From the NCBI GenBank assembly GCA_963772375.1, contig CAVYXG010000001.1:787809-851808 (forward strand): a stretch of DNA of 64,000 nucleotides, given 5' to 3'. The first letter of the stretch is position 1; the number at the start of each line of letters is the position of its first letter. The translations under genes were made by a program, and so were the position numbers. Under the pieces are notes generated by a model. It was not told where the DNA came from and did no database searches. It was given only the letters and a program-made list of their open reading frames with translations. This stretch comes from an uncultured Actinomycetes bacterium. Its GTDB lineage: Bacteria; Actinomycetota; UBA4738; JACQTL01. Below are positions 25,347 to 39,417 of this stretch, piece by piece.

Positions 25347-26888
25347 CTACTGCTGCTCGCAGTTCGAATCGTGCTCCCCGGCGACGCAGATGTCGTCGCC
25401 CGTGCCGCCGTCGAGCGTGTCGATCTGGGGGTCGCCGTTGAGCAGGTCGTTCCCCGGGCCGCCCTCGAGGGTGTCGTTCGTATGGCCCCCGTACAGGCGG
25501 TCGTTCCCCGGGCCGCCGAGAATCACGTCGTCGCCGTCCCCTCCGTAGTCGGTGTCGTTCCCCGGCCCGAGGTCGAAGTGGTCGGGGGCGCCCCCGCTGT
25601 ACGCCGTGTCGTTCCCGGAGCCGCCGATCACCACGTGGGGCGTGGCGCTCTCGGCGATGAGGACGTCGTCGCCGCCGCCGCCGCTCAGGCGGTCCGGGCT
25701 GTGGTCGATGCCGCCGATCAGCACGTCGCCGTCGTCGCCCCCGAGGAGCGCGTCGGTTCCGTTGTCCCCCGACAGGTAGTCGAGGCCCGGGCCACCGTCC
25801 ATCCGGTCGTTGCCGTCGCCGCCGGTGAGGTCGTCCATCCCGGAGCTGCCGCAGATGAGGTCGTCACCGCCGCCACCGGAGATGACGTCGTCGCCCCCGA
25901 GGCCGACGATCACGTCGTCGCCCGGCGTTCCCGTGAGGACGTCGTTGCCGTTCGTCCCCACGATGGTCGGGGTCCGGCCGAAGCACATCGCTCCGGCCGA
26001 GCCGGCGCCACCGTTCGGGGAGGGCGGTGGGGGGGTCACCGGGGGCGCGCACCCCGGAGCGTTCGCCGGGTTCAGGCACTGGTTCTGCCCGGTGCCGGCG
26101 TCCATCCGGTTGACGCCGTCGTTGCCGTCCATCGCGTCGTTGCCGGGCCCGCCGCGCATGACGTCGTCGTCGCCGCCGCCGTACAGGCGGTCGTCGCCGC
26201 CGTTCCCGAACATGCGGTCCCTGCCGGGTTCGCCGATCAGGACGTCGGGGCCGTCTCCCCCGATCAGCAGGTCGTTGCCCTCCCAGGCGTGCAGGATGTC
26301 GGCGCCGGGACCGCCGTCGAGGACGTCGTCGCCGGGCCCGCCGGAGAGCGCGTCGTCGCCGGGCCCGCCGATCAGGTGGTCCTTGCCCTTGTCGAGCCCG
26401 CCCCCGGTCATCATGTCGTCGCCGGTGCCGCCGTTCTGGTAGTCGTTGCCCTTGACGCCGTAGACACCGTCGTCGCCCGGGCCGCCCCACAGCCGGTCGT
26501 TCCCGTCGAACCCCAGGACGTCGTCGTCGCCGCCCCCGCCGAGGATCACGTCGTCGCCGGTCCACCCGGACAGCACGTCGTTGCCGGGCCCGCCGCAGAG
26601 GGTGTCGTCGCCGCCCCCGCCCTCGATGTCGTCGTTGCCGCCGAGACCGACGATGACGTCGTCGCCCGTGGTGCCGACCAGGTGGTCGCCCTGTGGGGTT
26701 CCGACGATGGTCGCGACCTTGCCGCGGCAGGTGAGCTCGCCGGGCGTCGACGGGCCAACGGTTCCGCGGGAGCCGGACGACGGCGACGCGGACGCCGACG
26801 ACGACGCCGGCGGGGGCTGGGCGTTGGCCGTGCAGCCGGCGATCAGCAGGCCGACGGCGAGGATCGGGAGGAAGGTTCGCGAGCGCAT
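25347..26888 (-). CDS. RTX-repeat (hemolysin-type Ca-binding) lipoprotein with an internally duplicated module
   Basis: Lipobox LLIAGCT. Dozens of GGxGxDxL repeats. Two copies of the module CxGxxxTIVGTxGxDxLxGTxGDDVIVGLGGxDDI, at residues ~82-110 and ~330-360. Confidence 0.8.
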   Translation of the reverse strand: MRSRTFLPILAVGLLIAGCTANAQPPPASSSASASPSSGSRGTVGPSTPGELTCRGKVATIVGTPQGDHLVGTTGDDVIVGLGGNDDIEGGGGDDTLCGGPGNDVLSGWTGDDVILGGGGDDDVLGFDGNDRLWGGPGDDGVYGVKGNDYQNGGTGDDMMTGGGLDKGKDHLIGGPGDDALSGGPGDDVLDGGPGADILHAWEGNDLLIGGDGPDVLIGEPGRDRMFGNGGDDRLYGGGDDDVMRGGPGNDAMDGNDGVNRMDAGTGQNQCLNPANAPGCAPPVTPPPPSPNGGAGSAGAMCFGRTPTIVGTNGNDVLTGTPGDDVIVGLGGDDVISGGGGDDLICGSSGMDDLTGGDGNDRMDGGPGLDYLSGDNGTDALLGGDDGDVLIGGIDHSPDRLSGGGGDDVLIAESATPHVVIGGSGNDTAYSGGAPDHFDLGPGNDTDYGGDGDDVILGGPGNDRLYGGHTNDTLEGGPGNDLLNGDPQIDTLDGGTGDDICVAGEHDSNCEQQ

Positions 26889-26965
26889 CGGGGACCGGCC
26901 CACCCTATGCCGGATCCCCGGACTTGGGGCGGAGGCCGCGGGACCGGATCCGGGGGGTCGCGGAC

Positions 26966-27373
26966 TCACGAGCCGAAGAACAGCCGGAGCTCGCGTTCGG
27001 CCGACTCGGGGGAGTCGCTGCCGTGCACGGCGTTCTCCCCGATCAGCGTGGCGAAGTCACCCCGGATCGTTCCCGGCGAGGCCTCGATGGGATTGGTCGA
27101 GCCCATGAGCCCCCGGAGCGCGGCCACGGCCTGCTCCCCGGTGACCTTGGCCACGACGACCGGCCCGCTCGTGATGAACTCGACGAGCTCGCCGAAGAAC
27201 GGCTTGTCGCGGTGCTCGCCGTAGTGCTCCTCCGCGGTGGCGCGTTCGATACGGATCAGCCGCAGCTCGTCGATGCGGAGGCCCTTGGCCTCGATGCGGC
27301 GCAGGACCTCGCCGATCAGGCCGCGGCGGACGGCGTCGGGCTTGACGATGAGCAGGGTGGACTGTTCGGCCAT
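26966..27373 (-). CDS. ndk: nucleoside diphosphate kinase
   Basis: 135 aa, [15 protein letters not shown]...NAVHGSDS (active-site His). Confidence 0.95.
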
Positions 27374-31565: not shown

Positions 31566-32495
31566 ATGCGCCGTTTCCTCGTGGTGACGTTCGTCGCGGC
31601 AATCCCGATCCTGCTCGCCGGGCCGGCCCGCGCCGCGCAGTCCCCCGGCCCCCGGGGCAACGTCGTCGTGCTCGACGGCCGGACGGTCATCGCCTCGGAC
31701 GAGATCGTCAACAGCGTGGTCGTGTTCCATGGCCGAACGATCGTGGACGGCTCCGCCCGGGGCAGTGTCGTCGTGTTCGACGGCGCCACCACGATCGGCG
31801 GGGACGTGCACGGGAGCGTGTTCGTGTTCCGGGGACAGGTCGAGGTCACGCCGGGAGCGCACATCGGCGGCGACCTCGTCACGACCGAGGCGCCGACCGT
31901 CGCCAAGGGCGCGACGATCGACGGCCGCATCCGGCACGTTTCGAACATCAACTTCACGGGGTACTCGTGGGCCTTCCACTTCCTCGTGTGGCTGGCCTAC
32001 TCGGTTTCCGTGCTGATCCTGGGGCTGCTGATGGTGGCGCTCCTCCCGGGGCCCATGGACTCCGCCGCGAACGCCGCCCGGACCATGGGCGCCACCGTCG
32101 GGTGGGGCCTGGTGATGCTGATCGGGCTGCCCCTCGCCGCGGCACTCGTGATGCTGACCCTGGTCGGGATCCCGCTGGGCCTGGCCGTGCTGCTGGCGCT
32201 GTGGTTGCTCTTCACCCTCGGGTACACGGTGGGCGAATATGCCCTCGGGCGGCTGCTCATCAAGCCGCCGGGCCGCCGGATGAAGGCGTTCTTCGCCGGG
32301 TGGGGCATCGCGCGCGCCGTGGCCCTCGTCCCGATCCTGGCCGGGCTCGCGTGGACCGTGCTCGCGCTCGCCGGCATGGGCGCGGTCACGGTCGCCGTGT
32401 GGCGGTCCCGGCGCGCGCTCCGGAGCGCAGAGCGGGGATCGCCGGACCCCGCGGTCCCGTTGGTGCCCGCGCCGCCACCGCCGGCCGGCGCCTGA
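31566..32495 (+). CDS. membrane protein with signal peptide, bactofilin-like beta-helical repeat region and C-terminal TM helices
   Basis: MRRFLVVTFVAAIPILLAGPARA signal. Repeats GRTIVDGSARGSVVVFDGATTIGGDVHGSVFVFRGQVEV. Three or more hydrophobic helices follow. Confidence 0.5.
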   Translation: MRRFLVVTFVAAIPILLAGPARAAQSPGPRGNVVVLDGRTVIASDEIVNSVVVFHGRTIVDGSARGSVVVFDGATTIGGDVHGSVFVFRGQVEVTPGAHIGGDLVTTEAPTVAKGATIDGRIRHVSNINFTGYSWAFHFLVWLAYSVSVLILGLLMVALLPGPMDSAANAARTMGATVGWGLVMLIGLPLAAALVMLTLVGIPLGLAVLLALWLLFTLGYTVGEYALGRLLIKPPGRRMKAFFAGWGIARAVALVPILAGLAWTVLALAGMGAVTVAVWRSRRALRSAERGSPDPAVPLVPAPPPPAGA

Positions 32496-32557
32496 GGTGG
32501 CGTTCCCGAAGCCGACCTAGAGGGCCGGCCGAACGGCCGAGGGAGGAGGCCGCCGCC

Positions 32558-34459
32558 ATGGTCGAACTGATCGGGATCCTGATCGTCGTCCTGGCCGTGA
32601 TCGTCGTCCGCCGCCTGCTCGGCATCCGTCGCGGGCGGTGGATCACCACCCTCGTCGCCGTGCTCATCGGCGAGCTCGGCGCCGGTCTCGTCATCAAGGC
32701 CGTCTACGGGAGCCTCTCCGGCGACCGGCGGGCGGGCGTGGCCCTCCTCGCGTGGGCGCTGGTGGTGCTGTTCGCGATGATCGTGGTCGTCCTGGTCGAG
32801 GTGCTGTCCCGGGGCCAGGTCCGCCGCCGGCGCCGCATCCCGCACCCGGTCCAGGGGCTCCGCCGCCTGTACCGACGCACCCGCCGGTACGCCCAGGTCG
32901 CACGGATCGTGATGCGCAGGCGCCTGTACGGCGCGGCCGGCGACCCGGCCGCGGGTCCCCGGCGGCTCCGGGCGGCGTTGGAGGATGCGGGCGGCCTGTT
33001 CGTCAAGCTGGGACAGGCCCTCGCCGACCAGCCGCAACTGGTCGGCCCGGCCGTGGCGGCGGAGCTCGCCGGGCTGCAGGACGAGGCCGTGCCGGCGGAT
33101 CTCGACGCCGCCCGGGCCGTGATCACGGAGGAGCTCGGCCCGTGGGACGAGGTGTTCGCCGAGATGTCGTCCACGGCGCTGGGCGCGGCCTCGATCGCGC
33201 AGACCTACCTGGCACGACTCCACGACGGGCGGGAGGTCGTGGTGAAGGTCCAGCGTCCCGGGGTGGCCGACGCGGTCCAGTGCGACCTCGACATCCTGCG
33301 CCGCCTCGTCGACCGGCTGGACCGCCGCACCACGTGGGCCCCGTCGATGGGCCTCAAGGAGCTGGTCGCGGGGTTCGACGAACGGACCCGCGAGGAGCTC
33401 GACTTCCGGATCGAGGCCGCGAACGCGATCGCCGCGCAGCGCTCCCTCGACCCCAGAGACCCCGTTCGGGTCCCCCGGATCATCGACACGTTCACCACCT
33501 CGCGGGTGATGGTCGAGGAACGGGCCGAGGGTCGCCCGGTGGGATCGCCGGGCATCTTCGAGGGATGGACGCCGGAGCGGCGGGGGGCGCTCGCCGACGG
33601 GTTCCTGACGTTCACCATGCGCCGCATGCTGGCCGGCGAGCCGTTCCACGCGGACCTCCACCCGGGCAACGTGTTCCTGCGGCCGGACGGCCTCCTCGAG
33701 CTCATCGACTTCGGTTCCGTCGGCACCCTCGACCCGTACGAGCGCTCCGGCCTCGTCGACATGCTCATCGGGGTCCAGCGCGAGGATCCCACGCTGCTGC
33801 GCCAGGGGCTGTTCCGCATCGGAACGCCGACCCGCCGGATCGACGAGGACGCGCTCGACCGGGAGCTCGCCCGCCTGCTGTCGTCCGGCAGGCAGCAGGG
33901 TGGGGTGGTCAGCGGACAGCTCTTCGACCAGGTGCTGCTCGTGCTGCGGGACTTCGGGATCCTGCTCCCGAGGTCGACGGCGACGCTGTTCCGCGCGCTG
34001 GTCACCCTGCTCGGAACCCTTCGCGTGATCGCCCCCGGCTACGACATCACGGCAGCCGCCGGCCGAGTCGGGGCCGACCTCTCGAGCGAGGACGGGGCGC
34101 CGGCGAACCTGTCCGACCTGGTGTCGAAGACCGCTCTTAATAACGCGCTGGTCCTGCGCCGGCTGCCGCAGCAGGTCGACGCGCTCGCCCGCAGTCTGCT
34201 CCACGGCGACCTCCGGACGCGGGTGAGCCTGCTCTCCGAGCCCGAGGACGTCCGCGTGGCCAGGGGAATGGTGAACCGGCTGGTCATGGGCATCATCGCC
34301 TCCGCGCTGGCCCTGGCCGCGGCGATCATGCTGTCGGCAGGTTCGGCTCCCATCCTCGGCGCGTTCCGCGTCGTCAATCTCATCGGTGCCGTGCTGCTGT
34401 TCTTCTCGGTGCTCCTGCTGCTGCGGCTGGTGGTGCAGATCCTCCGGGACCGCGAATGA
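32558..34459 (+). CDS. ABC1/UbiB-family atypical protein kinase with N- and C-terminal TM helices
   Basis: ABC1 motifs LGAASIAQTY, VVVKVQRPG, FHADLHPGNVF and IDFG. RBS GGGAGGAGG upstream of ATG 32558. Confidence 0.8.
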   Translation: MVELIGILIVVLAVIVVRRLLGIRRGRWITTLVAVLIGELGAGLVIKAVYGSLSGDRRAGVALLAWALVVLFAMIVVVLVEVLSRGQVRRRRRIPHPVQGLRRLYRRTRRYAQVARIVMRRRLYGAAGDPAAGPRRLRAALEDAGGLFVKLGQALADQPQLVGPAVAAELAGLQDEAVPADLDAARAVITEELGPWDEVFAEMSSTALGAASIAQTYLARLHDGREVVVKVQRPGVADAVQCDLDILRRLVDRLDRRTTWAPSMGLKELVAGFDERTREELDFRIEAANAIAAQRSLDPRDPVRVPRIIDTFTTSRVMVEERAEGRPVGSPGIFEGWTPERRGALADGFLTFTMRRMLAGEPFHADLHPGNVFLRPDGLLELIDFGSVGTLDPYERSGLVDMLIGVQREDPTLLRQGLFRIGTPTRRIDEDALDRELARLLSSGRQQGGVVSGQLFDQVLLVLRDFGILLPRSTATLFRALVTLLGTLRVIAPGYDITAAAGRVGADLSSEDGAPANLSDLVSKTALNNALVLRRLPQQVDALARSLLHGDLRTRVSLLSEPEDVRVARGMVNRLVMGIIASALALAAAIMLSAGSAPILGAFRVVNLIGAVLLFFSVLLLLRLVVQILRDRE

Positions 34460-34480
34460 CGCCCCTGCCCGGAAGGTGAC

Positions 34481-35044
34481 TCAGCCGGGGCAGCGCACTC
34501 CCGCTCCGCACAGGGTGAATCCCTGACGCTGCAGGAGCTTCACCCCGAGAGCCCGCGGGAAGAACTTGATCGCCCCGCTCGCCTCGAGGGCCTGTGTGAA
34601 GGTGGCACCCGGCTGGAACGAGAAGTGGTACGCGATGCACCCGCCGGGGAACGTGTAGAAGCGGTCTGCCGTGTAGTGCGGCGGGAGCGCCTCGGGCCGC
34701 TCGTACCGGGCGGTGCCGGCCTCGTTCGGGTCGACCGGGACCCGGACCGCGCCCCGCGTGTCGCAGGACCGGGCAAGGGTCACCGTCACGGCGCGCAATC
34801 CCGCCCGGTCCGAGTCCAGCCAGAACCGTGACCCACTCGATTCGATCTGTTCCCCTCCGAACGTCCATCCGGCCGGGAACTCGGTGATGCACGGGACGAA
34901 CGTCGCGGAGGGCACCGACTGCGCCATCAGGATCAGGACGCTGCTCTGGTTGCAGGTCGGGGCGTTCGGCGGCCCGGATGACAGGTCCACGCGACACGCA
35001 GTGAGCCCCACCGTCAACATGGCCGCCGCGACGAGCCGTCTCAC
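34481..35044 (-). CDS. hypothetical lipoprotein
   Basis: The GTG start overlaps the stop of the upstream gene (GTGA). Lipobox LTVGLTAC. Four Cys residues, no recognised domain. Confidence 0.45.
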   Translation of the reverse strand: MRRLVAAAMLTVGLTACRVDLSSGPPNAPTCNQSSVLILMAQSVPSATFVPCITEFPAGWTFGGEQIESSGSRFWLDSDRAGLRAVTVTLARSCDTRGAVRVPVDPNEAGTARYERPEALPPHYTADRFYTFPGGCIAYHFSFQPGATFTQALEASGAIKFFPRALGVKLLQRQGFTLCGAGVRCPG

Positions 35045-36771
35045 AGGGCCCCCGACTGGAGGTTCGCGAGGAGCAGGCCCCAGAGGATCAGCGCCCCGAA
35101 CACGACTCCGACGGTCAGCGCCATCCGCTGGAAGCTCCACCGCTGGATCGCGATCGGCTGGCGGGGCGGGGCGAGCTCCCGGTATCGCCGGAGGATGTCG
35201 TTCCCCTCCTTCCGCTGGCGACGCATCATGGAGCGCGACTGGCTCGGGATGGTGACGCTGCGGGTGGCGGCGAACGCCTCCCCGAGCTCATCCGGCGTGA
35301 AGATCTCGATCGCGCGGGCGTACACCAGGTCGGGGTCGGTGCGAAGGCCCAGCACGATCATCATGTTCGCGAGGTCGACGGCCTGCCGCCAGGGCGAGGG
35401 GCGGAGCTCTCCGAACGCCAGGTCGATCAGCACGACCCGGCCGTTCTGCACCATGATGTTCGCCGGCTTCACGTCGCGGTGCGCGACGCCCGCGTCCCAC
35501 ATCCGACGGACGGTGCGCAGGGCGTCGTCCACGATCGCCTCGTCGACCTCGGCGTCGGTGAACTCGACCGACCCCTCGAGGAACTCGGTGACCAGGAGAT
35601 ACTCGGCGTTCGGCGTGATCTCGACGAACCCGTAGGAGCGGGCCCCGGGGAGCCCGGCGTCGTGCACCACCCGGAGCACGTAGTCCTCGTACTGGACCAG
35701 CCGGCGAACCGATGCGTAGGCCTTCTCGTCCTCGAGCGACCCGTACAGGATGGTCCGCCCGAGCTTGTACCAGCGGTCGGCCCGGAGGTGGGTCTTCGCG
35801 TAGAGCTTCCCGAAGATTACCTGGTCGGGGTCACCGGCCACCGTGATCCGCATCGGCGTCGAGCCCCCCGACCCGCGCAGCCCGAACGGCTTGACGTCCA
35901 CGACGTCGAGACCCAGCTGCTCGGACAGCGCCTGGTGGATCGCGGCGCCCCGCGCCCCCCCGAGGTCGAGGTGCGCGGCACGGCCCTTCCGGAATGAGAC
36001 GGGGAACACGGAGTTCGGGAGGAACGTGCGGTAGGCGAGCAGCGGCAGCGCCACCCCCAGGACCACCGCGACCAGATCGTCGAACGGATGGTCGACCGCG
36101 AGGTACCACTTGGAGGCGACCAACAGCGCGATCAGCGCCCACCCCACCCACTTCCCCACCCGCCTCGGCTTCCCGGCCGGAAGCAGCGTGTACAGGACGC
36201 CGAGCAGCGTGATCGCGGCCGCCGCGACCGTGGCCGACGGGAACGAGAACTCGTGCCAGCTCCCGATGATCCGCACCCCGAGCGGCCGGGCGCGGGGCAC
36301 CGTCTGCTGGACGAGGGCGACGAGCCACGTGACGACGAGCACGGTGGAGACGAACACGAACAGATGCCGCCACCGCTTGAACAGGACGAGGGCCACGATC
36401 ACGCCCCACCGAGCGACCCGGTTGGGCCATTCGGCCCCGATCCCCGACAGGAATCTCGCGACGGACGTCAGCCATCCGGTGCGGATCCCCGACAGCCAGA
36501 TCAGGAACCTGTTCTCGCCATGGTCGAACCAGTCCCCGATCGGGACGGTGAACAGCAGCACCACGAATACGATCAGGGCCAGGATGGCGACGGTCCAGAG
36601 CCTCCCGCTCAGCCCGTACTCGCGGGGAAGCGGCGGCGGCTTTCCCGAGGGCCGGCGGCGGCGGCTCGTTCGCCGCAGTCCGGGGACCGCGACCGGGTCC
36701 CGCCACCGCAGGTGGTCGCCGGCCTCGCCCGACTCGTCGGCCGCCTGGGTGCCCGCGTCGACCTCCATCTC
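35041..36771 (-). CDS. membrane protein: PAP2-like transmembrane domain (degenerate motif 2) fused to C-terminal Ser/Thr-kinase-like domain
   Basis: The N-terminal 6-TM region carries PAP2 motif 1 (PRARP) and motif 3 SKWYLAVDHPFDD, but motif 2 is SFPSAT (Gly/His lost). The C-terminal half has ePK-like motifs: FGLRGSGGS, HRDVKPANIMV and IDLAFG. Start taken at MEVDAG, overlapping the upstream stop. Confidence 0.65.
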   Translation of the reverse strand, partial: EMEVDAGTQAADESGEAGDHLRWRDPVAVPGLRRTSRRRRPSGKPPPLPREYGLSGRLWTVAILALIVFVVLLFTVPIGDWFDHGENRFLIWLSGIRTGWLTSVARFLSGIGAEWPNRVARWGVIVALVLFKRWRHLFVFVSTVLVVTWLVALVQQTVPRARPLGVRIIGSWHEFSFPSATVAAAAITLLGVLYTLLPAGKPRRVGKWVGWALIALLVASKWYLAVDHPFDDLVAVVLGVALPLLAYRTFLPNSVFPVSFRKGRAAHLDLGGARGAAIHQALSEQLGLDVVDVKPFGLRGSGGSTPMRITVAGDPDQVIFGKLYAKTHLRADRWYKLGRTILYGSLEDEKAYASVRRLVQYEDYVLRVVHDAGLPGARSYGFVEITPNAEYLLVTEFLEGSVEFTDAEVDEAIVDDALRTVRRMWDAGVAHRDVKPANIMVQNGRVVLIDLAFGELRPSPWRQAVDLANMMIVLGLRTDPDLVYARAIEIFTPDELGEAFAATRSVTIPSQSRSMMRRQRKEGNDILRRYRELAPPRQPIAIQRWSFQRMALTVGVVFGALILWGLLLANLQSGAL

Positions 36772-37693
36772 AACCCATCCCTCGGGACGCAAGCCACCCG
36801 CTCGCCACGGCCGCGGGCGACAGGCCGGCCAGCACGGCCCGGTCGAGCGCGATGAGCTCGGTGGTGGTGAGCGCGGCGCTCACGGCGTCGACGGTCCCGG
36901 CGAGGCGTTCCCCGTACCTGCCCAGCACCGACCGGCTGACGAACGGCGTCACGTTGTCGGAGGGCTCCAGCCCGCGGTCGTCGGTCAGCATCCGGAACCC
37001 GCGCTGGGCGACCTGCGGATCGGTCGTGAACACCAGGGCCACGTCGACGTCCCCGCCGGACAGCGCCGAGACCGTGAGCGGCCCGCTCGCGTCGAGGGGA
37101 ACGAAGCTCTTGAAGTGCAGCCCGTAGACGCTCGTGAGGCCCCGGAGGCAGAGGGGGCGTTCGGGGCACTCGGGCGGACCGCCCAGGACGAGCTTCGACG
37201 CGACCGGCGCCAGGTCGGAGATGGTCCGGAGCCCGTACCGCTCCGCGATCGCCGCCGTCACGGCGAACGCGTTCGCGTTCTGGCCGGGGGCGCTCCGGAG
37301 CGCGGCCGCAGGCGTGCCGGCGAGCGCCCGAACGAGCGAGGCGTGCGTCGCCGCGGGATCGCCCGCGGCGTTCGTCGCCCTGGTCAGGAAGTCGAGCGCC
37401 GACCCCTGGTACTCGGGCACCATCTGGACCAGCCCCCGCATGAGGGCCGGATCGACAAGCTCCCGCGGGCCGAGTCCCAGCTGGAGCTGCACGGGGATGC
37501 CGTTGGCCAGGAGCGCCTGCCCGTAGACCTCGGCCAGCACCTCGGACTCGGGAAAGTCGAACGACCCCACGACCACCGTGCCGGGCGTGACGGAGGGCGG
37601 CGCCGGCCCACCGCCGCTCGTGCACGAGACGAAGCAGAGCGTCGCGACCACGGCCGCGACCCCCCGGGCACGTGTCGGGACCCGCCCCCCCAT
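36770..37693 (-). CDS. glycine betaine/choline-type substrate-binding lipoprotein (OpuAC/ProX-like), orphan
   Basis: Lipobox TLCFVSCTS. The segment VVVGSFDFPESEVLAEVYGQALLANGIPV is typical of the OpuAC fold. No permease or ATPase gene adjacent. Confidence 0.7.
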   Translation of the reverse strand: MGGRVPTRARGVAAVVATLCFVSCTSGGGPAPPSVTPGTVVVGSFDFPESEVLAEVYGQALLANGIPVQLQLGLGPRELVDPALMRGLVQMVPEYQGSALDFLTRATNAAGDPAATHASLVRALAGTPAAALRSAPGQNANAFAVTAAIAERYGLRTISDLAPVASKLVLGGPPECPERPLCLRGLTSVYGLHFKSFVPLDASGPLTVSALSGGDVDVALVFTTDPQVAQRGFRMLTDDRGLEPSDNVTPFVSRSVLGRYGERLAGTVDAVSAALTTTELIALDRAVLAGLSPAAVASGWLASRGMG

Positions 37694-37777
37694 AGCTCGA
37701 CCCTACGCCGACTCAGCCACCCTGGCCAACGGGTACGATGCGCCTCGCCCGTCCGAGCCAGGGGGAGCTGCGCGTCC

Positions 37778-38482
37778 GTGGCACGCAAGGAGCACGAACA
37801 CCCCCTGCTCGAGAACACCCCCAAGGACTTCGTGCTCGTGGCCTGTCTGGGCGGCCTCGCGATCGCGATTGCCGTCCTGGTGGCGAACCCATCGACGCTG
37901 CGGCAGGTTCAGCGCGCCGACGATGCGTTCCTCCGGTTCGTGCTCCGTCATCGGACAGGGTGGATGACGGTGATCGGGAGGGTGTTCAACGTCCTGGGAT
38001 CGTCGGTGGTCACGCTGCCGGTTCGGATCCTCGCGGCCGCGTACCTGGCCTTCCGGCGCCGATGGTGGCACTTCGCGGCGTTCGTCTCCGCGATCGCGCT
38101 GTCCGAGATCGTCTCCAACGTCATGAAGACCGCCTACGACCGGCAGCGCCCGCCCGGTTCGCTCGTGCACACCACGGCGTCGTCGTTCCCGTCGGGCCAC
38201 GCGGTCGCGACGTCGGTGACGGCCGTCGCGCTGGTGATCGCGTTCGTCCCGACCGGCCGCCAGCGGGCGATCTGGGGAACGGTCGCGGCGGTGTTCTCCT
38301 TCCTGATGGCGATCTCGCGGGCGTACCTGGCCGCGCACTGGCTGTCGGACGCCATCGAGGGAACGCTGATCGGCGTCACCTGCGCGCTGCTGCCGGCGAT
38401 CGCGATCGAGGCGATCCGCGAACGCCGGCAACGGAGGGCGGACCTCGCGGCGCCGTCGGTCGAGCCCTTGCCGTCCGGCTGA
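37778..38482 (+). CDS. PAP2 family phosphatase (phosphatidic acid / undecaprenyl-pyrophosphate phosphatase-like)
   Basis: All three PAP2 motifs are intact: [13 protein letters not shown] and [15 protein letters not shown] start. 6 TM helices. Confidence 0.7.
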   Translation: MARKEHEHPLLENTPKDFVLVACLGGLAIAIAVLVANPSTLRQVQRADDAFLRFVLRHRTGWMTVIGRVFNVLGSSVVTLPVRILAAAYLAFRRRWWHFAAFVSAIALSEIVSNVMKTAYDRQRPPGSLVHTTASSFPSGHAVATSVTAVALVIAFVPTGRQRAIWGTVAAVFSFLMAISRAYLAAHWLSDAIEGTLIGVTCALLPAIAIEAIRERRQRRADLAAPSVEPLPSG

Positions 38483-39417
38483 CCCGTCAGCGTTGGTCGA
38501 TGTTCATGGTCGACCAGCGTCGAGCCGAGCAGGACACCGTTGGCGAAATAGGTGTCGGTCGGGCCGGAGGGCAGCAGGTCGAAGGTGAACCCGCCGGAGT
38601 AGTGGACCCGCCGGGTGGACTCGACCGTCGAGCCTTCGAATGCCACCCCGGACCGGAGTTCGCCCACGGGAGTGCCGTCCGGTGTCGGGTGACCCGGCGA
38701 GACGAGCACGGTCCGGCCGTCGGCCAGCACCAGGCGGACCATCTCGTGGGTCGGGGGAACGGGGGTGCTGCCCACGCCTGTCACGGTGGCCCGGACGCGA
38801 CGGCCGTCGCGGTCGGTCGACCAGACCGTCATCCCAACGCGTACATCCTGCACCAGGACGAACCCGCCGGGCGTCGCGATCCGCGTGTTCCTCGCGAGGC
38901 AGACCGGACACGGAACGAACAGGTTCCGCTTGACGAAGTCGACCCGCACCGTCCCGCTCGGATCCACCGTCCCGGAGGCCCAGGTCACGGGTCCCGGTGA
39001 GGAGAGGGGACGAATCGTGAGATCGAAGCGGTACGCCACGCCGTCGCGTCCGGAGAAGCTCCACGTGATGGAGCCAGCGGCCGTCAGGATTCGTTCGCGG
39101 TCGTCGTCGCTCAGATCGGTTCCGACGAGATGCAGGTGGTGGAGGATCGCCGCAAGGTCCGCCGGACGCGATCGCGCGAGCTTCTCGATCTCGGTGACCA
39201 GCTCCTCATGGGTGGGGATCCGAACGACCGGCGGCCCGCACAGGTACCGCATGCCGCCGATCGCCTTCACCACGAGGAGCTTCAGCTCGGGGATCGGCAG
39301 CCTCCGGCCGGACGGGGACGGCGACGCGGAGGAACCCGGGGTCCCGGCACCCCCACCGCACGCGACCAGCATCGCGACAGACAGGAGTGCAATGACTGCG
39401 ACGCGGACGCGCGGCAT
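38134..39417 (-). CDS. lipoprotein with C-terminal Hint (bacterial intein-like, BIL) domain; 3' end uncertain
   Basis: Lipobox MLVACGG. Hint domain [33 protein letters not shown]...[26 protein letters not shown]...[17 protein letters not shown]. The frame stays open for ~350 nt of low-complexity sequence that overlaps the convergent PAP2 gene. The real end is probably near 38480. Confidence 0.45.

What the first reader, a model, noticed from the sequence alone, without database searches (positions are those of the whole stretch)
35041..36771. PAP2-like transmembrane domain with degenerate catalytic motif fused to an ePK-like kinase domain
The N-terminal 6-TM region keeps PAP2 motif 1 (PRARP) and a near-perfect motif 3 (SKWYLAVDHPFDD, matching SRxYLGVHxPxD). 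Motif 2 reads SFPSAT instead of PSGH, so the nucleophile His is lost and the domain is a likely pseudophosphatase or lipid-binding module. The C-terminal half carries FGLRGSGGS, HRDVKPANIMV and IDLAFG, which are ePK-like glycine-loop, catalytic-loop and DFG motifs. I do not recognise this fusion as a described architecture.
Basis: partly seen in the sequence, partly recalled or inferred. Interest (0 to 1): 0.6.

Follow-up and report, generated by a model that had tools for sequence, protein, structure and literature searches.

The report
Dead lipid phosphatase fused to kinase
This gene encodes a membrane protein in which a catalytically dead copy of a lipid-phosphate phosphatase is joined to an intact protein-kinase-like domain; with a partner lipoprotein it forms a widespread, unstudied module of Actinomycetota that most likely carries signals across the membrane.

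Summary
Window 35041..36768 (-) encodes a 575-aa protein with five parts: a cytoplasmic tail, a PAP2-like 6-TM domain, a linker, an ePK-like kinase and a C-terminal TM helix.

PAP2 homology is solid (family profile vs B. subtilis PgpB, E 6.6e-10; neighbouring canonical PAP2 gene, E 5e-13). The C1 Lys and C2 His are lost, and the C3 His is replaced by Asp, with a conserved His one residue later. This holds across the family. All kinase catalytic motifs are invariant.

The family is large (>7,600 clusters at 90% identity) and mainly in Actinomycetota. It sits in a translationally coupled operon:
- an OpuAC-like binding lipoprotein upstream (41/62 loci);
- a Cys-rich lipoprotein downstream (64/73 loci, and fused to the C-terminus in ~730-760-aa homologs);
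- often a canonical PAP2 nearby.

Distant members carry N-terminal REC-LuxR or STAND-TPR modules.

Best reading (0.5): a receptor-like transmembrane kinase whose dead PAP2 domain, with the lipoprotein(s), forms the outward-facing sensor. The main rival is a lipid kinase. I found no paper describing it, and databases auto-label it Bud32/LPS kinase/PAP2. New variant of a known kind; moderately interesting.

The parts
35041..36768 (-). Target gene: 575-aa PAP2-like / ePK-like kinase membrane protein (ATG 36768, stop TGA 35043-35041)
   Evidence: ORF. Identical 575-aa public gene call P0001. Start context.
36622..36663 (-). Conserved motif RRRRPSGKPPPLPR (residues 36-49) in the disordered cytoplasmic tail
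   Evidence: An 'RRPSG..PPLP'-type string precedes TM1 in 67/78 species-level homologs. pLDDT <50 in the AF2 model. Retained between the effector domains and TM1 in the REC-HTH and STAND-TPR fusions.
36019..36618 (-). PAP2-like six-helix transmembrane domain (residues ~51-250), catalytically degenerate
   Evidence: Family profile vs PgpB 5jki, E 6.6e-10. E 5e-13 to the neighbouring PAP2. Helices in the AF2 model. Hydropathy and positive-inside pattern.
36283..36297 (-). Vestigial PAP2 motif C1: PRARP (residues 158-162). The Arg-Pro is kept; the Lys seven residues upstream is Gln.
36229..36246 (-). Vestigial PAP2 motif C2: SFPSAT (residues 175-180) in place of SxPSGH. The His is lost family-wide (PS[R/A/L..][P/T]).
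36076..36114 (-). Vestigial PAP2 motif C3: SKWYLAVDHPFDD (residues 219-231). The canonical His position is Asp, a conserved His follows at +1, and the final Asp is kept.
   Evidence: Alignments to PgpB and to the neighbouring PAP2. Family counts.
35164..35913 (-). ePK-like kinase domain (residues ~286-535): GSGGSTP loop, Lys321, HRDVKPAN (430-437), DLAFG (449-453). No activation loop or APE motif.
   Evidence: Invariant columns. Pfam/NCBIfam hits. Foldseek hits to protein kinases at E ~1e-5. Mean identity 73% vs 48% for the TM domain.
35053..35133 (-). C-terminal transmembrane helix (residues 546-572) that places the C-terminus outside the cell
   Evidence: AF2 helix 546-572. Hydropathy segment 546-575. 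In 730-760-aa homologs the lipoprotein domain is fused after it.
34481..35044 (-). Partner gene: 187-aa Cys-rich lipoprotein of unknown family. GTG start overlaps the target's stop (GTGA); lipobox LTAC; six invariant Cys.
   Evidence: Junction. Exact public gene call. Alignment A2. Present downstream in 64/73 loci. Fused to the target in P0085 and P0098. AF2 pLDDT 88.9, with only weak PsbP/Mog1-like fold hits.
36770..37693 (-). Partner gene: OpuAC-fold substrate-binding lipoprotein (307 aa). Its stop lies 1 nt before the target's ATG. No ABC permease or ATPase beside it.
   Evidence: Pfam OpuAC 6.8e-40. Closest solved structure is A. fulgidus ProX, E 1.9e-19. Adjacent upstream in 41/62 loci. 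Conserved but altered pocket.
37778..38482 (+). Divergently transcribed canonical PAP2 phosphatase (about 234 aa from GTG 37778) with intact KxxxxxxRP, PSGH and SRxxxxxHxxxD. It is a paralog of the target's N-terminal domain.
   Evidence: Pfam PAP2 2.2e-18. Weak NCBIfam matches to undecaprenyl-diphosphatases. Pairwise alignment. Start candidates. A separate PAP2 lies within the flanks in at least 18/45 loci.

Best explanation
The gene encodes a receptor-like transmembrane kinase. I propose that its sensing or scaffolding module is a PAP2 lipid-phosphate phosphatase domain that has lost catalysis.

Shown:
- Topology is N-in. The vestigial PAP2 pocket (RxRP, PS, DHPxD) faces the outside of the membrane. 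The kinase lies in the cytoplasm, tethered on both sides by TM6 and a seventh TM helix.
- The downstream lipoprotein domain lies outside. It is encoded in a translationally coupled gene, or fused directly after TM7 in other species.
- The kinase has a complete catalytic apparatus.
- Some relatives carry REC-LuxR HTH or STAND-TPR regulator modules on the cytoplasmic N-terminus.

Inferred:
- The dead PAP2 pocket, together with the Cys-rich lipoprotein and in many lineages an orphan OpuAC-type binding protein, detects an extracytoplasmic or membrane cue. A lipid phosphate such as polyprenyl (di)phosphate, or the state of the neighbouring active PAP2, is the most natural candidate.
- The change is relayed through the conserved cytoplasmic loops and linker to the kinase.
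- The kinase then phosphorylates a protein target. Candidates are its own conserved RRRRPSG tail or a transcription regulator, which is separate here and fused in some relatives.
For: Architecture and topology: AF2 model and hydropathy/positive-inside pattern.

Dead phosphatase:
- C1 Lys, C2 His and the canonical C3 His are absent in all 121 close homologs and in the 77 homologs recovered from the species-representative loci.
- The adjacent paralog keeps all of them.
- Distant branches lose even the shifted His.

Live kinase:
- GSGGSTP, Lys321, HRDxKPxN and Asp449 are invariant in 56 sequences.
- The kinase is the most conserved region (73% vs 48%).
- HRDxKxxN is the Ser/Thr protein-kinase form of the catalytic loop (established knowledge).

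Functional linkage with extracytoplasmic partners:
- GTGA and TGAnATG gene junctions.
- Lipoprotein downstream in 64/73 loci and SBP upstream in 41/62 loci.
- Natural fusions of the lipoprotein domain after TM7.
- The same lipoprotein gene overlaps by 4 nt downstream even in distant branches.
- The SBP is adjacent with no ABC permease or ATPase in the immediate window neighbourhood. Only a sporadic ABC ATPase cluster appears in about 7 of the related loci. It has a conserved, non-betaine-type pocket.

Signalling role: N-terminal REC+GerE and AAA_16/nSTAND+TPR fusions are found on long contigs from independent assemblies.

Precedents in Actinobacteria: solute-binding protein GlnH signals through membrane protein GlnX to kinase PknG (PMC6069109, PMC9769921). 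Lipoprotein LpqB is encoded with sensor kinase MtrB (PMC5845573).
Against: - No substrate, ligand or phosphorylation event is shown.
- The kinase lacks an activation loop, APE motif and the usual peptide-binding elements. In this it resembles RIO/Bud32/Kdo-type minimal kinases, some of which act on sugars or lipids or mainly hydrolyse ATP.
- Its only Pfam hit above threshold is the Kdo/WaaP (sugar-lipid kinase) family.
- No FHA protein, PP2C phosphatase or regulator is conserved next to it in the 80 loci.
- The RRRRPSG serine is not universal (absent in P0294).
- The vestigial pocket is well conserved in the main clade, which is also compatible with a residual or altered catalytic role.
Confidence: 0.5

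Rival explanations
1. Lipid or glycolipid kinase. The kinase domain phosphorylates a membrane-embedded small molecule (polyprenol, a polyprenyl-linked sugar or another glycolipid) held by the PAP2-like bundle. It would work with the neighbouring active PAP2 in a phosphorylation/dephosphorylation cycle of a carrier lipid.
For: - The best Pfam match, and the only one above threshold, is Kdo/WaaP (54/56 members at E <=0.01).
- The kinase is a minimal fold without an activation loop.
- It is welded to a lipid-phosphate-binding fold and sits near a canonical PAP2 whose weak best matches are undecaprenyl-diphosphatases.
- One distant locus also has an LPG_synthase_TM membrane protein plus a PAP2 next door.
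- Many invariant Arg/Lys residues lie on the cytoplasmic loops and on the N-lobe helix HLRADRWYK.
Against: - The PAP2 pocket faces outward while the kinase is inside, so they cannot act on the same head group without a flip.
- The catalytic loop is HRDxKxxN, as in protein Ser/Thr kinases. To my knowledge the known sugar and small-molecule kinases have a different form.
- Kdo, RIO, Pkinase and APH scores are all similar and weak.
- Fusions to REC-HTH and STAND-TPR regulators and the tight link to two extracytoplasmic lipoproteins fit signalling better than metabolism.
- No lipid-carrier or glycan biosynthesis genes are conserved nearby.
Confidence: 0.2
2. Nucleotide-driven switch or regulator of the neighbouring PAP2. 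The kinase domain works mainly as an ATPase or ATP-binding switch (as proposed for RIO and Bud32). The dead PAP2 domain pairs with the active paralog to control its lipid-phosphatase activity.
For: - The dead domain is a paralog of the adjacent active PAP2 (E 5e-13), and a separate PAP2 recurs in the neighbourhood.
- Weak RIO/Bud32-like matches.
- Pairing of a dead paralog with an active enzyme is a common pseudoenzyme theme (general knowledge).
Against: - A separate PAP2 was found in only about 40% of loci with enough flank, whereas the lipoprotein is nearly universal.
- All phosphotransfer residues, including the HRD Asp and the Lys two residues later, are invariant.
- There is no evidence of a heterodimer.
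Confidence: 0.12
3. Bifunctional enzyme. The PAP2-like domain is still catalytic through a non-canonical Asp-His pair (DHPxD), so the protein is both a lipid phosphatase or phosphotransferase and a kinase.
For: RxRP, PS and DHPxD are strongly conserved on the outer face in the main clade (117/121 His, 120/121 Asp). This means the pocket is under selection.
Against: - The residues to my knowledge needed for the phosphohistidine mechanism (C3 His at its canonical position, C2 His, C1 Lys) are all missing.
- Distant members replace the shifted His with Arg or Tyr and the final Asp with Gln.
- The TM domain evolves much faster than the kinase.
Confidence: 0.08
4. The public labels are right: it is a Bud32/KEOPS tRNA-modification kinase or an LPS core (Kdo/WaaP/InaA) kinase.
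For: JGI and NCBI automatic names. Pfam Kdo hit just above threshold. NCBIfam Bud32 domain at E 2.8e-7.
Against: - The Bud32 score is 30 bits against a cutoff of 125, and every NCBIfam hit is far below its cutoff.
- The protein is an integral membrane protein with seven TM helices.
- No Kae1 or other KEOPS genes and no LPS genes are in the conserved neighbourhood.
- Actinomycetota do not make LPS (established knowledge).
Confidence: 0.02

Closest known systems
GlnH-GlnX-PknG signalling system of Mycobacterium and Corynebacterium (PMC6069109, PMC9769921)
   Same: An actinobacterial operon in which an extracytoplasmic solute-binding lipoprotein without its own ABC transporter reports through an integral membrane protein to a cytoplasmic ePK-type kinase.
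   Different: There, the membrane transducer (GlnX, 4 TM) and the kinase (PknG, a soluble Hanks kinase with TPR) are separate proteins unrelated to PAP2. The SBP is an amino-acid binder, not OpuAC-fold. There is no second Cys-rich lipoprotein. No homology was detected here; the resemblance is in logic only.
MtrB-LpqB (sensor kinase with a lipoprotein encoded immediately downstream; PMC5845573)
   Same: A membrane kinase followed in the same operon by a lipoprotein that acts on its extracytoplasmic side. The arrangement is conserved across Actinobacteria.
   Different: MtrB is a histidine kinase, and LpqB is a large unrelated lipoprotein. Here the lipoprotein domain can be covalently fused to the kinase.
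PAP2 lipid-phosphate phosphatases (B. subtilis PgpB/YodM 5jki; BcrC/YbjG-type undecaprenyl-diphosphatases)
   Same: Homologous six-helix bundle with the motif-bearing loops on the outer face. RP of C1, PS of C2 and Asp of C3 are retained. A canonical paralog sits 1 kb away.
   Different: The C1 Lys, C2 His and the canonical C3 His are absent family-wide, and a kinase plus a seventh TM helix are appended.
Vertebrate PLPPR/PRG (plasticity-related) proteins and other PAP2-family pseudophosphatases (from my own knowledge, not tested here)
   Same: PAP2-fold membrane proteins that have lost catalytic residues and act through binding and signalling rather than hydrolysis.
   Different: They are eukaryotic, have no kinase domain, and lost activity independently.
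Minimal ePK-like kinases: RIO, Bud32, KdkA/WaaP (Pfam PF01163, PF06293; NCBIfam TIGR03724)
   Same: Small kinase fold with a Gly-rich loop, beta3 Lys, catalytic loop and metal-binding Asp, but no activation loop or APE. Weak profile matches to all of them.
   Different: The catalytic loop is HRDxKPxN, as in Hanks Ser/Thr kinases. Scores are far below the family cutoffs, except a marginal Kdo hit. The domain is embedded between TM segments. The genomic contexts (KEOPS, ribosome biogenesis, LPS) are absent.
M. tuberculosis MviN/MurJ (Rv3910), a polytopic membrane protein fused to a cytoplasmic kinase-like domain and an extracellular domain (from my own knowledge, not tested here)
   Same: An actinobacterial polytopic lipid-handling membrane domain, followed by a cytoplasmic kinase fold, a further TM helix and an extracytoplasmic domain. 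This order matches the fused 730-760-aa homologs.
   Different: In MviN the membrane domain is an active flippase and the kinase domain is a pseudokinase. Here it is the reverse: a dead membrane enzyme and an apparently live kinase.

Membership tests
PAP2 superfamily (PF01569) | Sequence and fold homology of the six-helix membrane core | tested here: met
   Family profile vs PgpB/YodM 5jki, E 6.6e-10 over profile positions 54-232. BLASTP E 5e-13 to the canonical PAP2 in the window. PF01569 hit in 52/56 members. The window protein itself scores 20.5 bits, below the 27.2 cutoff.
PAP2 superfamily (PF01569) | Motif C1 KxxxxxxRP | tested here: not met
   Arg-Pro is kept (R 117/121, P 119/121), but the Lys position is Gln here and variable in the family.
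PAP2 superfamily (PF01569) | Motif C2 PSGH (catalytic His) | tested here: not met
   PSAT here and PS[R/A/L/..][P/T] in all 121 close and 77 species-level homologs. No His at this position.
PAP2 superfamily (PF01569) | Motif C3 SRxxxxxHxxxD (nucleophilic His, Asp) | tested here: not met
   The canonical His column is Asp/Asn. A conserved His follows at +1, and the final Asp is kept. The His is lost altogether in the distant members P0282 and P0294.
Hanks-type Ser/Thr protein kinases (PF00069) | Gly-rich loop, beta3 Lys, HRDxKxxN catalytic loop, DFG Asp | tested here: met
   G299-S-G-G-S-T-P305, K321, H430-R-D-x-K-P-x-N437 and D449 are invariant in 56 sequences. DFG reads DLA.
Hanks-type Ser/Thr protein kinases (PF00069) | Activation segment ending in APE, full-length match to the family model above threshold | tested here: not met
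   Only about 8 residues separate DLAFG from the next helix. The Pkinase match covers model positions 86-144 only, at 27.4 bits against a 31.7 cutoff. Foldseek hits to kinases are weak (E ~1e-5, rmsd >8 A).
Kdo/WaaP lipopolysaccharide kinase family (PF06293) | Profile match above the gathering score | tested here: met
   27.9 bits against a 21.3 cutoff, covering residues 333-476 of the 583-aa ORF. 54/56 members match at E <=0.01. The match is marginal and no better than RIO1/Pkinase/APH in other members.
Kdo/WaaP lipopolysaccharide kinase family (PF06293) | LPS-core biosynthetic context (waa/kdt genes, Gram-negative outer membrane) | tested here: not met
   The hosts are Actinomycetota. The conserved neighbours are two lipoproteins and a PAP2, with no LPS genes. 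NCBIfam Kdo kinase scores 21.3 bits against a 142 cutoff.
Bud32 / KEOPS kinase and RIO kinases | Equivalog-level profile match and association with Kae1/KEOPS or ribosome biogenesis | tested here: not met
   TIGR03724 scores 30.2 bits against a 125 cutoff, and the RIO models fall far below their cutoffs. No Kae1 neighbour. The protein is an integral membrane protein.
APH / choline-kinase small-molecule kinases (PF01636) | Profile match above threshold | tested here: not met
   22.6 bits against a 23.2 cutoff, a local match to the catalytic-loop region only.
SBP- or lipoprotein-assisted transmembrane sensor kinases (functional class; GlnH-GlnX-PknG, MtrB-LpqB) | Extracytoplasmic binding protein or lipoprotein genetically coupled to a membrane-linked kinase, without a cognate transporter | tested here: met
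   Overlapping or abutting genes. Conservation in 64/73 and 41/62 loci. Fusion forms. No ABC permease or ATPase adjacent.
SBP- or lipoprotein-assisted transmembrane sensor kinases (functional class; GlnH-GlnX-PknG, MtrB-LpqB) | Ligand-dependent change in kinase activity and a defined phosphorylated target | not testable with these tools
   Needs biochemistry or genetics. The only indirect support is the fusion of relatives to REC-HTH and STAND-TPR regulators.

The most novel reading that the evidence does not exclude
A PAP2 phosphatase that lost catalysis but kept its lipid-phosphate pocket has become the receptor of a transmembrane Ser/Thr kinase. The module would read the pool of a carrier-lipid phosphate, such as polyprenyl diphosphate, at the outer leaflet. 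It would do so with a dedicated Cys-rich lipoprotein and an OpuAC-fold co-sensor, and report to cytoplasmic regulators. That would be a previously unrecognised class of cell-envelope sensor, widespread in Actinomycetota.
Probability: 0.25. Interest if true: 0.75.

Novelty: new variant of a known kind. Interest (0 to 1): 0.6.

Why it matters
How bacterial Ser/Thr kinases sense their signals is largely unknown beyond PASTA-domain kinases and the GlnH-GlnX-PknG relay. This family offers a defined and very common module (over 7,600 sequence clusters, many soil, marine and freshwater Actinomycetota). Its candidate sensor is recognisable: a dead lipid-phosphate phosphatase with two genetically locked extracytoplasmic partners. 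Natural fusions point to the outputs (LuxR-type response regulator, STAND-TPR regulator).

If the sensor reads a carrier-lipid phosphate, it would link cell-envelope precursor supply to phosphosignalling in a new way. It is also a clean bacterial example of an enzyme turned receptor. In addition, it corrects misleading public annotation (Bud32, LPS kinase, PAP2 phosphatase). The family has cultured members (Geodermatophilus, Blastococcus, Trujillonella), so it is experimentally accessible.

Tried and rejected
- Foldseek of the lipoprotein model gave no hit below E 1e-3. Only a weak PsbP/Mog1-like resemblance appeared (BT_1490, Apa, LpqN, DcrB, Tsi3, RseB), so I do not assign a fold family.
- I looked for further conserved neighbours by clustering all ORFs in 80 loci. 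Beyond the four-gene module nothing recurs in more than 9 loci. What does recur is housekeeping (nrnA-like DHH, ribF, pnp, infB, truB). No FHA, PP2C or regulator gene is conserved.
- The promoter/terminator scan of 34000-38600 was uninformative.
- Four literature searches found no description of the fusion. The lipocone paper (PMC12419801) and a 2026 preprint on a PAP2-neighbouring PIK-like kinase in Segetibacter (10.64898/2026.09.18.752743) concern different proteins. The bacterial STK atlas preprint does not mention PAP2.
- I considered and rejected the Bud32/KEOPS and LPS-kinase labels on cutoffs and context.
- I considered whether the long fused forms were gene-calling artefacts. I rejected this because identical proteins occur on several long contigs from independent assemblies.


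Full report
**1. The observation**

The minus-strand ORF at 35041..36792 is real. Its codon-position GC pattern (0.70/0.49/0.93) is that of a genuine gene in this 70-74% GC window. The true start is ATG 36768, giving 575 aa. This equals the public gene call P0001 on a 1.98-Mb contig and lies one base after the stop of the upstream gene. All residue numbers below use this 575-aa protein.

Pfam finds:
- Kdo/WaaP: 27.9 bits, above its 21.3 cutoff;
- Pkinase: 27.4 bits, below its 31.7 cutoff;
- APH, PAP2 (20.5 bits, below the 27.2 cutoff) and RIO1.

NCBIfam gives only far-sub-threshold matches, led by the Bud32 domain (30 bits against a 125 cutoff).

**2. The N-terminal domain is a PAP2 homolog with a dead active site**

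A profile of 56 family members matches B. subtilis PgpB/YodM (PDB 5jki) at E 6.6e-10 across the membrane domain. PF01569 is hit in 52 of 56 members. Residues 48-244 align without large gaps to the canonical PAP2 encoded about 1 kb away in the same window (25% identity, E 5e-13).

That neighbour has intact [15 protein letters not shown] and [12 protein letters not shown]. The target reads QQTVPRARP, SFPSAT and SKWYLAVDHPFD. Four catalytic positions are therefore affected:
- the C1 Lys is Gln;
- the C2 His is Thr;
- the C3 Arg is Lys;
- the canonical C3 His is Asp.

The PgpB alignment gives the same register.

The pattern is family-wide. In 121 close homologs and 77 homologs from the species-representative loci, C2 is PS-x-[P/T] and C3 is [SA]-R/E-x-Y-L-[GA]-x-[D/N]-H-P-x-D. 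No member has a canonical His at either site. In distant branches even the shifted His is replaced (DR in P0282; DY..Q in P0294). To my knowledge of the PAP2 mechanism, the C3 His is the nucleophile and the C2 His the general acid. The domain has therefore lost both.

**3. The C-terminal domain is a minimal but catalytically complete ePK-like kinase**

Invariant in 56 sequences are G299-S-G-G-S-T-P305, K321, H430-R-D-x-K-P-x-N437 and I448-D449-x-A-F. The domain is the most conserved part of the protein (73% mean identity to the query, against 48% for the membrane domain).

The AF2 model (pLDDT 79) shows a five-strand N-lobe with two helices and a helical C-lobe. Only about eight residues separate DLAFG from the next helix, so there is no activation loop or APE. 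Foldseek against the PDB returns ordinary protein kinases at E ~1e-5 with poor rmsd.

Family-wide, Pkinase, Kdo, APH and RIO1 all match at similar weak levels. The domain is thus an unclassified member of the minimal-kinase part of the superfamily, carrying a Hanks-type HRDxKxxN catalytic loop.

**4. Topology**

Hydropathy, the AF2 helices and the distribution of Lys/Arg give the following arrangement:
- The N-terminal tail is inside (8 K/R in residues 30-52).
- The C1/C2 loop (157-178) and C3 (222-230) are outside.
- The loops at 128-136 and 195-207 and the post-TM6 linker are inside.
- The kinase is inside.
- A seventh TM helix (546-572) puts the C-terminus outside.

Invariant residues lie on both faces. 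On the outer face they form the vestigial pocket. On the inner face they are R134, H135, G199, R202, K206, R247, P251, F255 and P256, plus the linker AHLD..G.RG.AI. This is what would be expected if the bundle and the kinase communicate.

The disordered N-terminal tail carries a strikingly conserved RRRRPSGxPPPLPR motif (67/78 species-level sequences). It combines an RRxS-type basophilic-kinase consensus with a polyproline stretch. I flag it as a candidate autophosphorylation or docking site. This is inference only, and the Ser is absent in P0294.

**5. Genomic context: a conserved module**

- *Operon structure.* The three minus-strand genes are translationally coupled. The SBP stop TGA (36772-36770) is followed after one base by the target ATG. 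The target stop overlaps the GTG start of the downstream gene (GTGA, 35044-35041). All three gene models match public calls exactly.
- *Downstream lipoprotein.* It is a 187-aa lipoprotein (lipobox LTAC) with six invariant Cys and no Pfam or NCBIfam family. Its AF2 model is confident (pLDDT 88.9) but has only weak PsbP/Mog1-like fold matches.
- *Upstream SBP.* It is an OpuAC-fold lipoprotein (Pfam 6.8e-40). Its closest solved relative is A. fulgidus ProX (E 1.9e-19). There is no ABC permease or ATPase beside it.
- *SBP pocket.* Aligned to ProX, one box tyrosine is kept (Y63 = Y95). The others are replaced (Y111 to N141, Y190 to F222, Y214 to D246 here and Glu in the relatives), and K13 is F45. 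The replacement residues are themselves conserved in 46 cluster-associated SBPs, together with a Cys176/Cys182 pair. The ProX residue roles are from my memory. The SBP is therefore a real binder of something other than a classical betaine.
- *Conservation across 80 loci from species-representative genomes*:
  - the lipoprotein gene follows the target in 64/73 loci with enough flank;
  - the SBP precedes it in 41/62, sometimes inverted but still adjacent;
  - a separate canonical PAP2 lies within the flanks in at least 18/45.
- *No other conserved neighbour.* Nothing else recurs.
- *Canonical PAP2 in this window.* It is divergently transcribed from the SBP gene, about 84 nt apart.

**6. Natural fusions**

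Homologs of 730-760 aa are the target joined, after TM7, to the lipoprotein domain (P0085, E 2e-24; P0098, E 9e-32). About 20 of the 77 species-level sequences are of this length. This fixes the lipoprotein domain outside the cell and shows that it works with the target.

A search of 1.84 billion representatives with the PAP2-like domain alone found 841 relatives at E <=1e-3, 398 at <=1e-10 and 57 at <=1e-30. Among the top 150 were proteins with extra cytoplasmic N-terminal modules:
- REC + LuxR/GerE HTH (P0282, P0294);
- AAA_16/nSTAND + TPR (P0263 and P0287 by Pfam; P0276 inferred from matching length and domain position).

These are not artefacts. P0282 occurs identically on five contigs of up to 1.59 Mb, and P0263 on a 2.37-Mb contig. 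Both keep the RRPSG..PLP motif before TM1. Both are followed by a lipoprotein-domain gene overlapping by 4 nt (hhalign 98.1% and 99.3%). The P0263 locus also has an LPG_synthase_TM protein and a canonical PAP2 next door.

The invariant core is therefore the dead PAP2 bundle, the kinase, TM7 and the Cys-rich outer domain. The SBP and the active PAP2 are frequent accessories. Transcription-type regulators are occasional covalent outputs.

**7. Mechanism**

The best-supported reading is a receptor-like transmembrane kinase. The outward-facing vestigial PAP2 pocket, with the lipoprotein domain and often the SBP, forms the input. The cytoplasmic loops, the linker and the double tether (TM6 and TM7) transmit the change. 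The kinase is the output and acts on protein targets.

The architecture, topology, dead phosphatase site, intact kinase site, genetic coupling and fusions are shown. The ligand, the relay and the substrate are inferred.

The logic parallels two actinobacterial systems:
- GlnH-GlnX-PknG, where an SBP signals through a membrane protein to a kinase (PMC6069109, PMC9769921);
- the MtrB-LpqB kinase-lipoprotein pair (PMC5845573).

The domain order of the fused forms mirrors M. tuberculosis MviN (my own knowledge), but with the live and dead domains exchanged.

The main rival is a lipid or sugar-lipid kinase working with the active PAP2. Its support is the marginal Kdo/WaaP match, the minimal kinase fold and the lipid-handling neighbours. 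Against it are the opposite sidedness of the pocket and the kinase, the Hanks-type catalytic loop and the regulator fusions. Other rivals are given in the Rival explanations section: an ATP-driven regulator of the neighbouring PAP2, residual non-canonical phosphatase activity, and the Bud32/LPS-kinase labels.

**8. Novelty and verdict**

The family is large: 7,605 clusters at 90% identity scored at E <=0.001 among the 8,000 candidates examined. It is found mainly in Actinomycetota, including Acidimicrobiia, Geodermatophilaceae, Frankiales-like lineages, Streptosporangiaceae, Nitriliruptoraceae and Nanopelagicales. Cultured hosts include Geodermatophilus saharensis, Trujillonella endophytica and Blastococcus. 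A few loci are labelled as other phyla. Most of these are short MAG contigs and may be binning errors; I did not check this.

Public annotation is automatic and contradictory: 'Bud32', 'lipopolysaccharide kinase InaA family', 'phosphatase PAP2 family', 'glycosyltransferase 2 family'. I found no paper describing the protein or the module.

It is not categorically new. Membrane-tethered ePK-like kinases with lipoprotein or SBP co-sensors are a known kind, as are pseudoenzymes. However, a dead PAP2 as the integral membrane module of a live kinase, with a dedicated new lipoprotein domain, is a new variant. Interest 0.6.

Noticed in passing
window 31967..34459 (+): An ABC1/UbiB-type atypical kinase (Pfam ABC1 8.7e-52; TM segments at both ends of the ORF) lies convergent to the operon. 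An ABC1 homolog also sits just downstream of the lipoprotein gene in 6 of 80 related loci (L008, L014, L024, L026, L046, L059). This puts a second atypical kinase in the neighbourhood in some Acidimicrobiia-type genomes.
   Followed up: partly
window 38134..39417 (-): A 427-aa ORF with a lipoprotein signal and a weak Hint_2 domain runs about 350 nt antisense into the 3' end of the canonical PAP2 gene (37778..38482 +). tblastn 'hits' of its tail in 8 other loci coincide with the antisense strand of their PAP2 genes. The tail is therefore probably an open antisense frame or a genuine convergent overlap, not a conserved domain.
   Followed up: partly
window 25347..27056 (-): A 569-aa protein with 9 matched stretches of RTX (HemolysinCabind) calcium-binding repeats (E 2.8e-63), unusual next to housekeeping genes (valS, clpX, clpP, tig) in an actinobacterial-type genome.
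   Followed up: no
L072 13941..17586: This locus holds a second copy of the module (SBP, lipoprotein and PAP2 hits) about 6 kb downstream of the first target gene, so the module can be duplicated within one genome.
   Followed up: no
L084 8940..10907: Next to the STAND-TPR-fused family member are an LPG_synthase_TM (MprF-type flippase-like) membrane protein and a canonical PAP2 on the opposite strand. This is another hint of a link to membrane-lipid head-group chemistry.
   Followed up: no
window 36770..37693 (-) and 46 related SBP genes: The OpuAC-fold binding protein has a conserved pocket that differs from the four-Tyr box of A. fulgidus ProX (N141 and E/D246 replace two Tyr; invariant R179; a conserved Cys176-Cys182 pair). 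This suggests an unknown ligand and an orphan (transporter-less) sensor role.
   Followed up: partly
P0110 (576 aa, 50-kb ENA contig): One homolog is called as a fusion of the C-terminal part of the OpuAC SBP with the target (OpuAC residues 2-82, then PAP2-like plus kinase, truncated). It may be a real SBP-kinase fusion or a gene-call run-through of the 1-nt junction.
   Followed up: no
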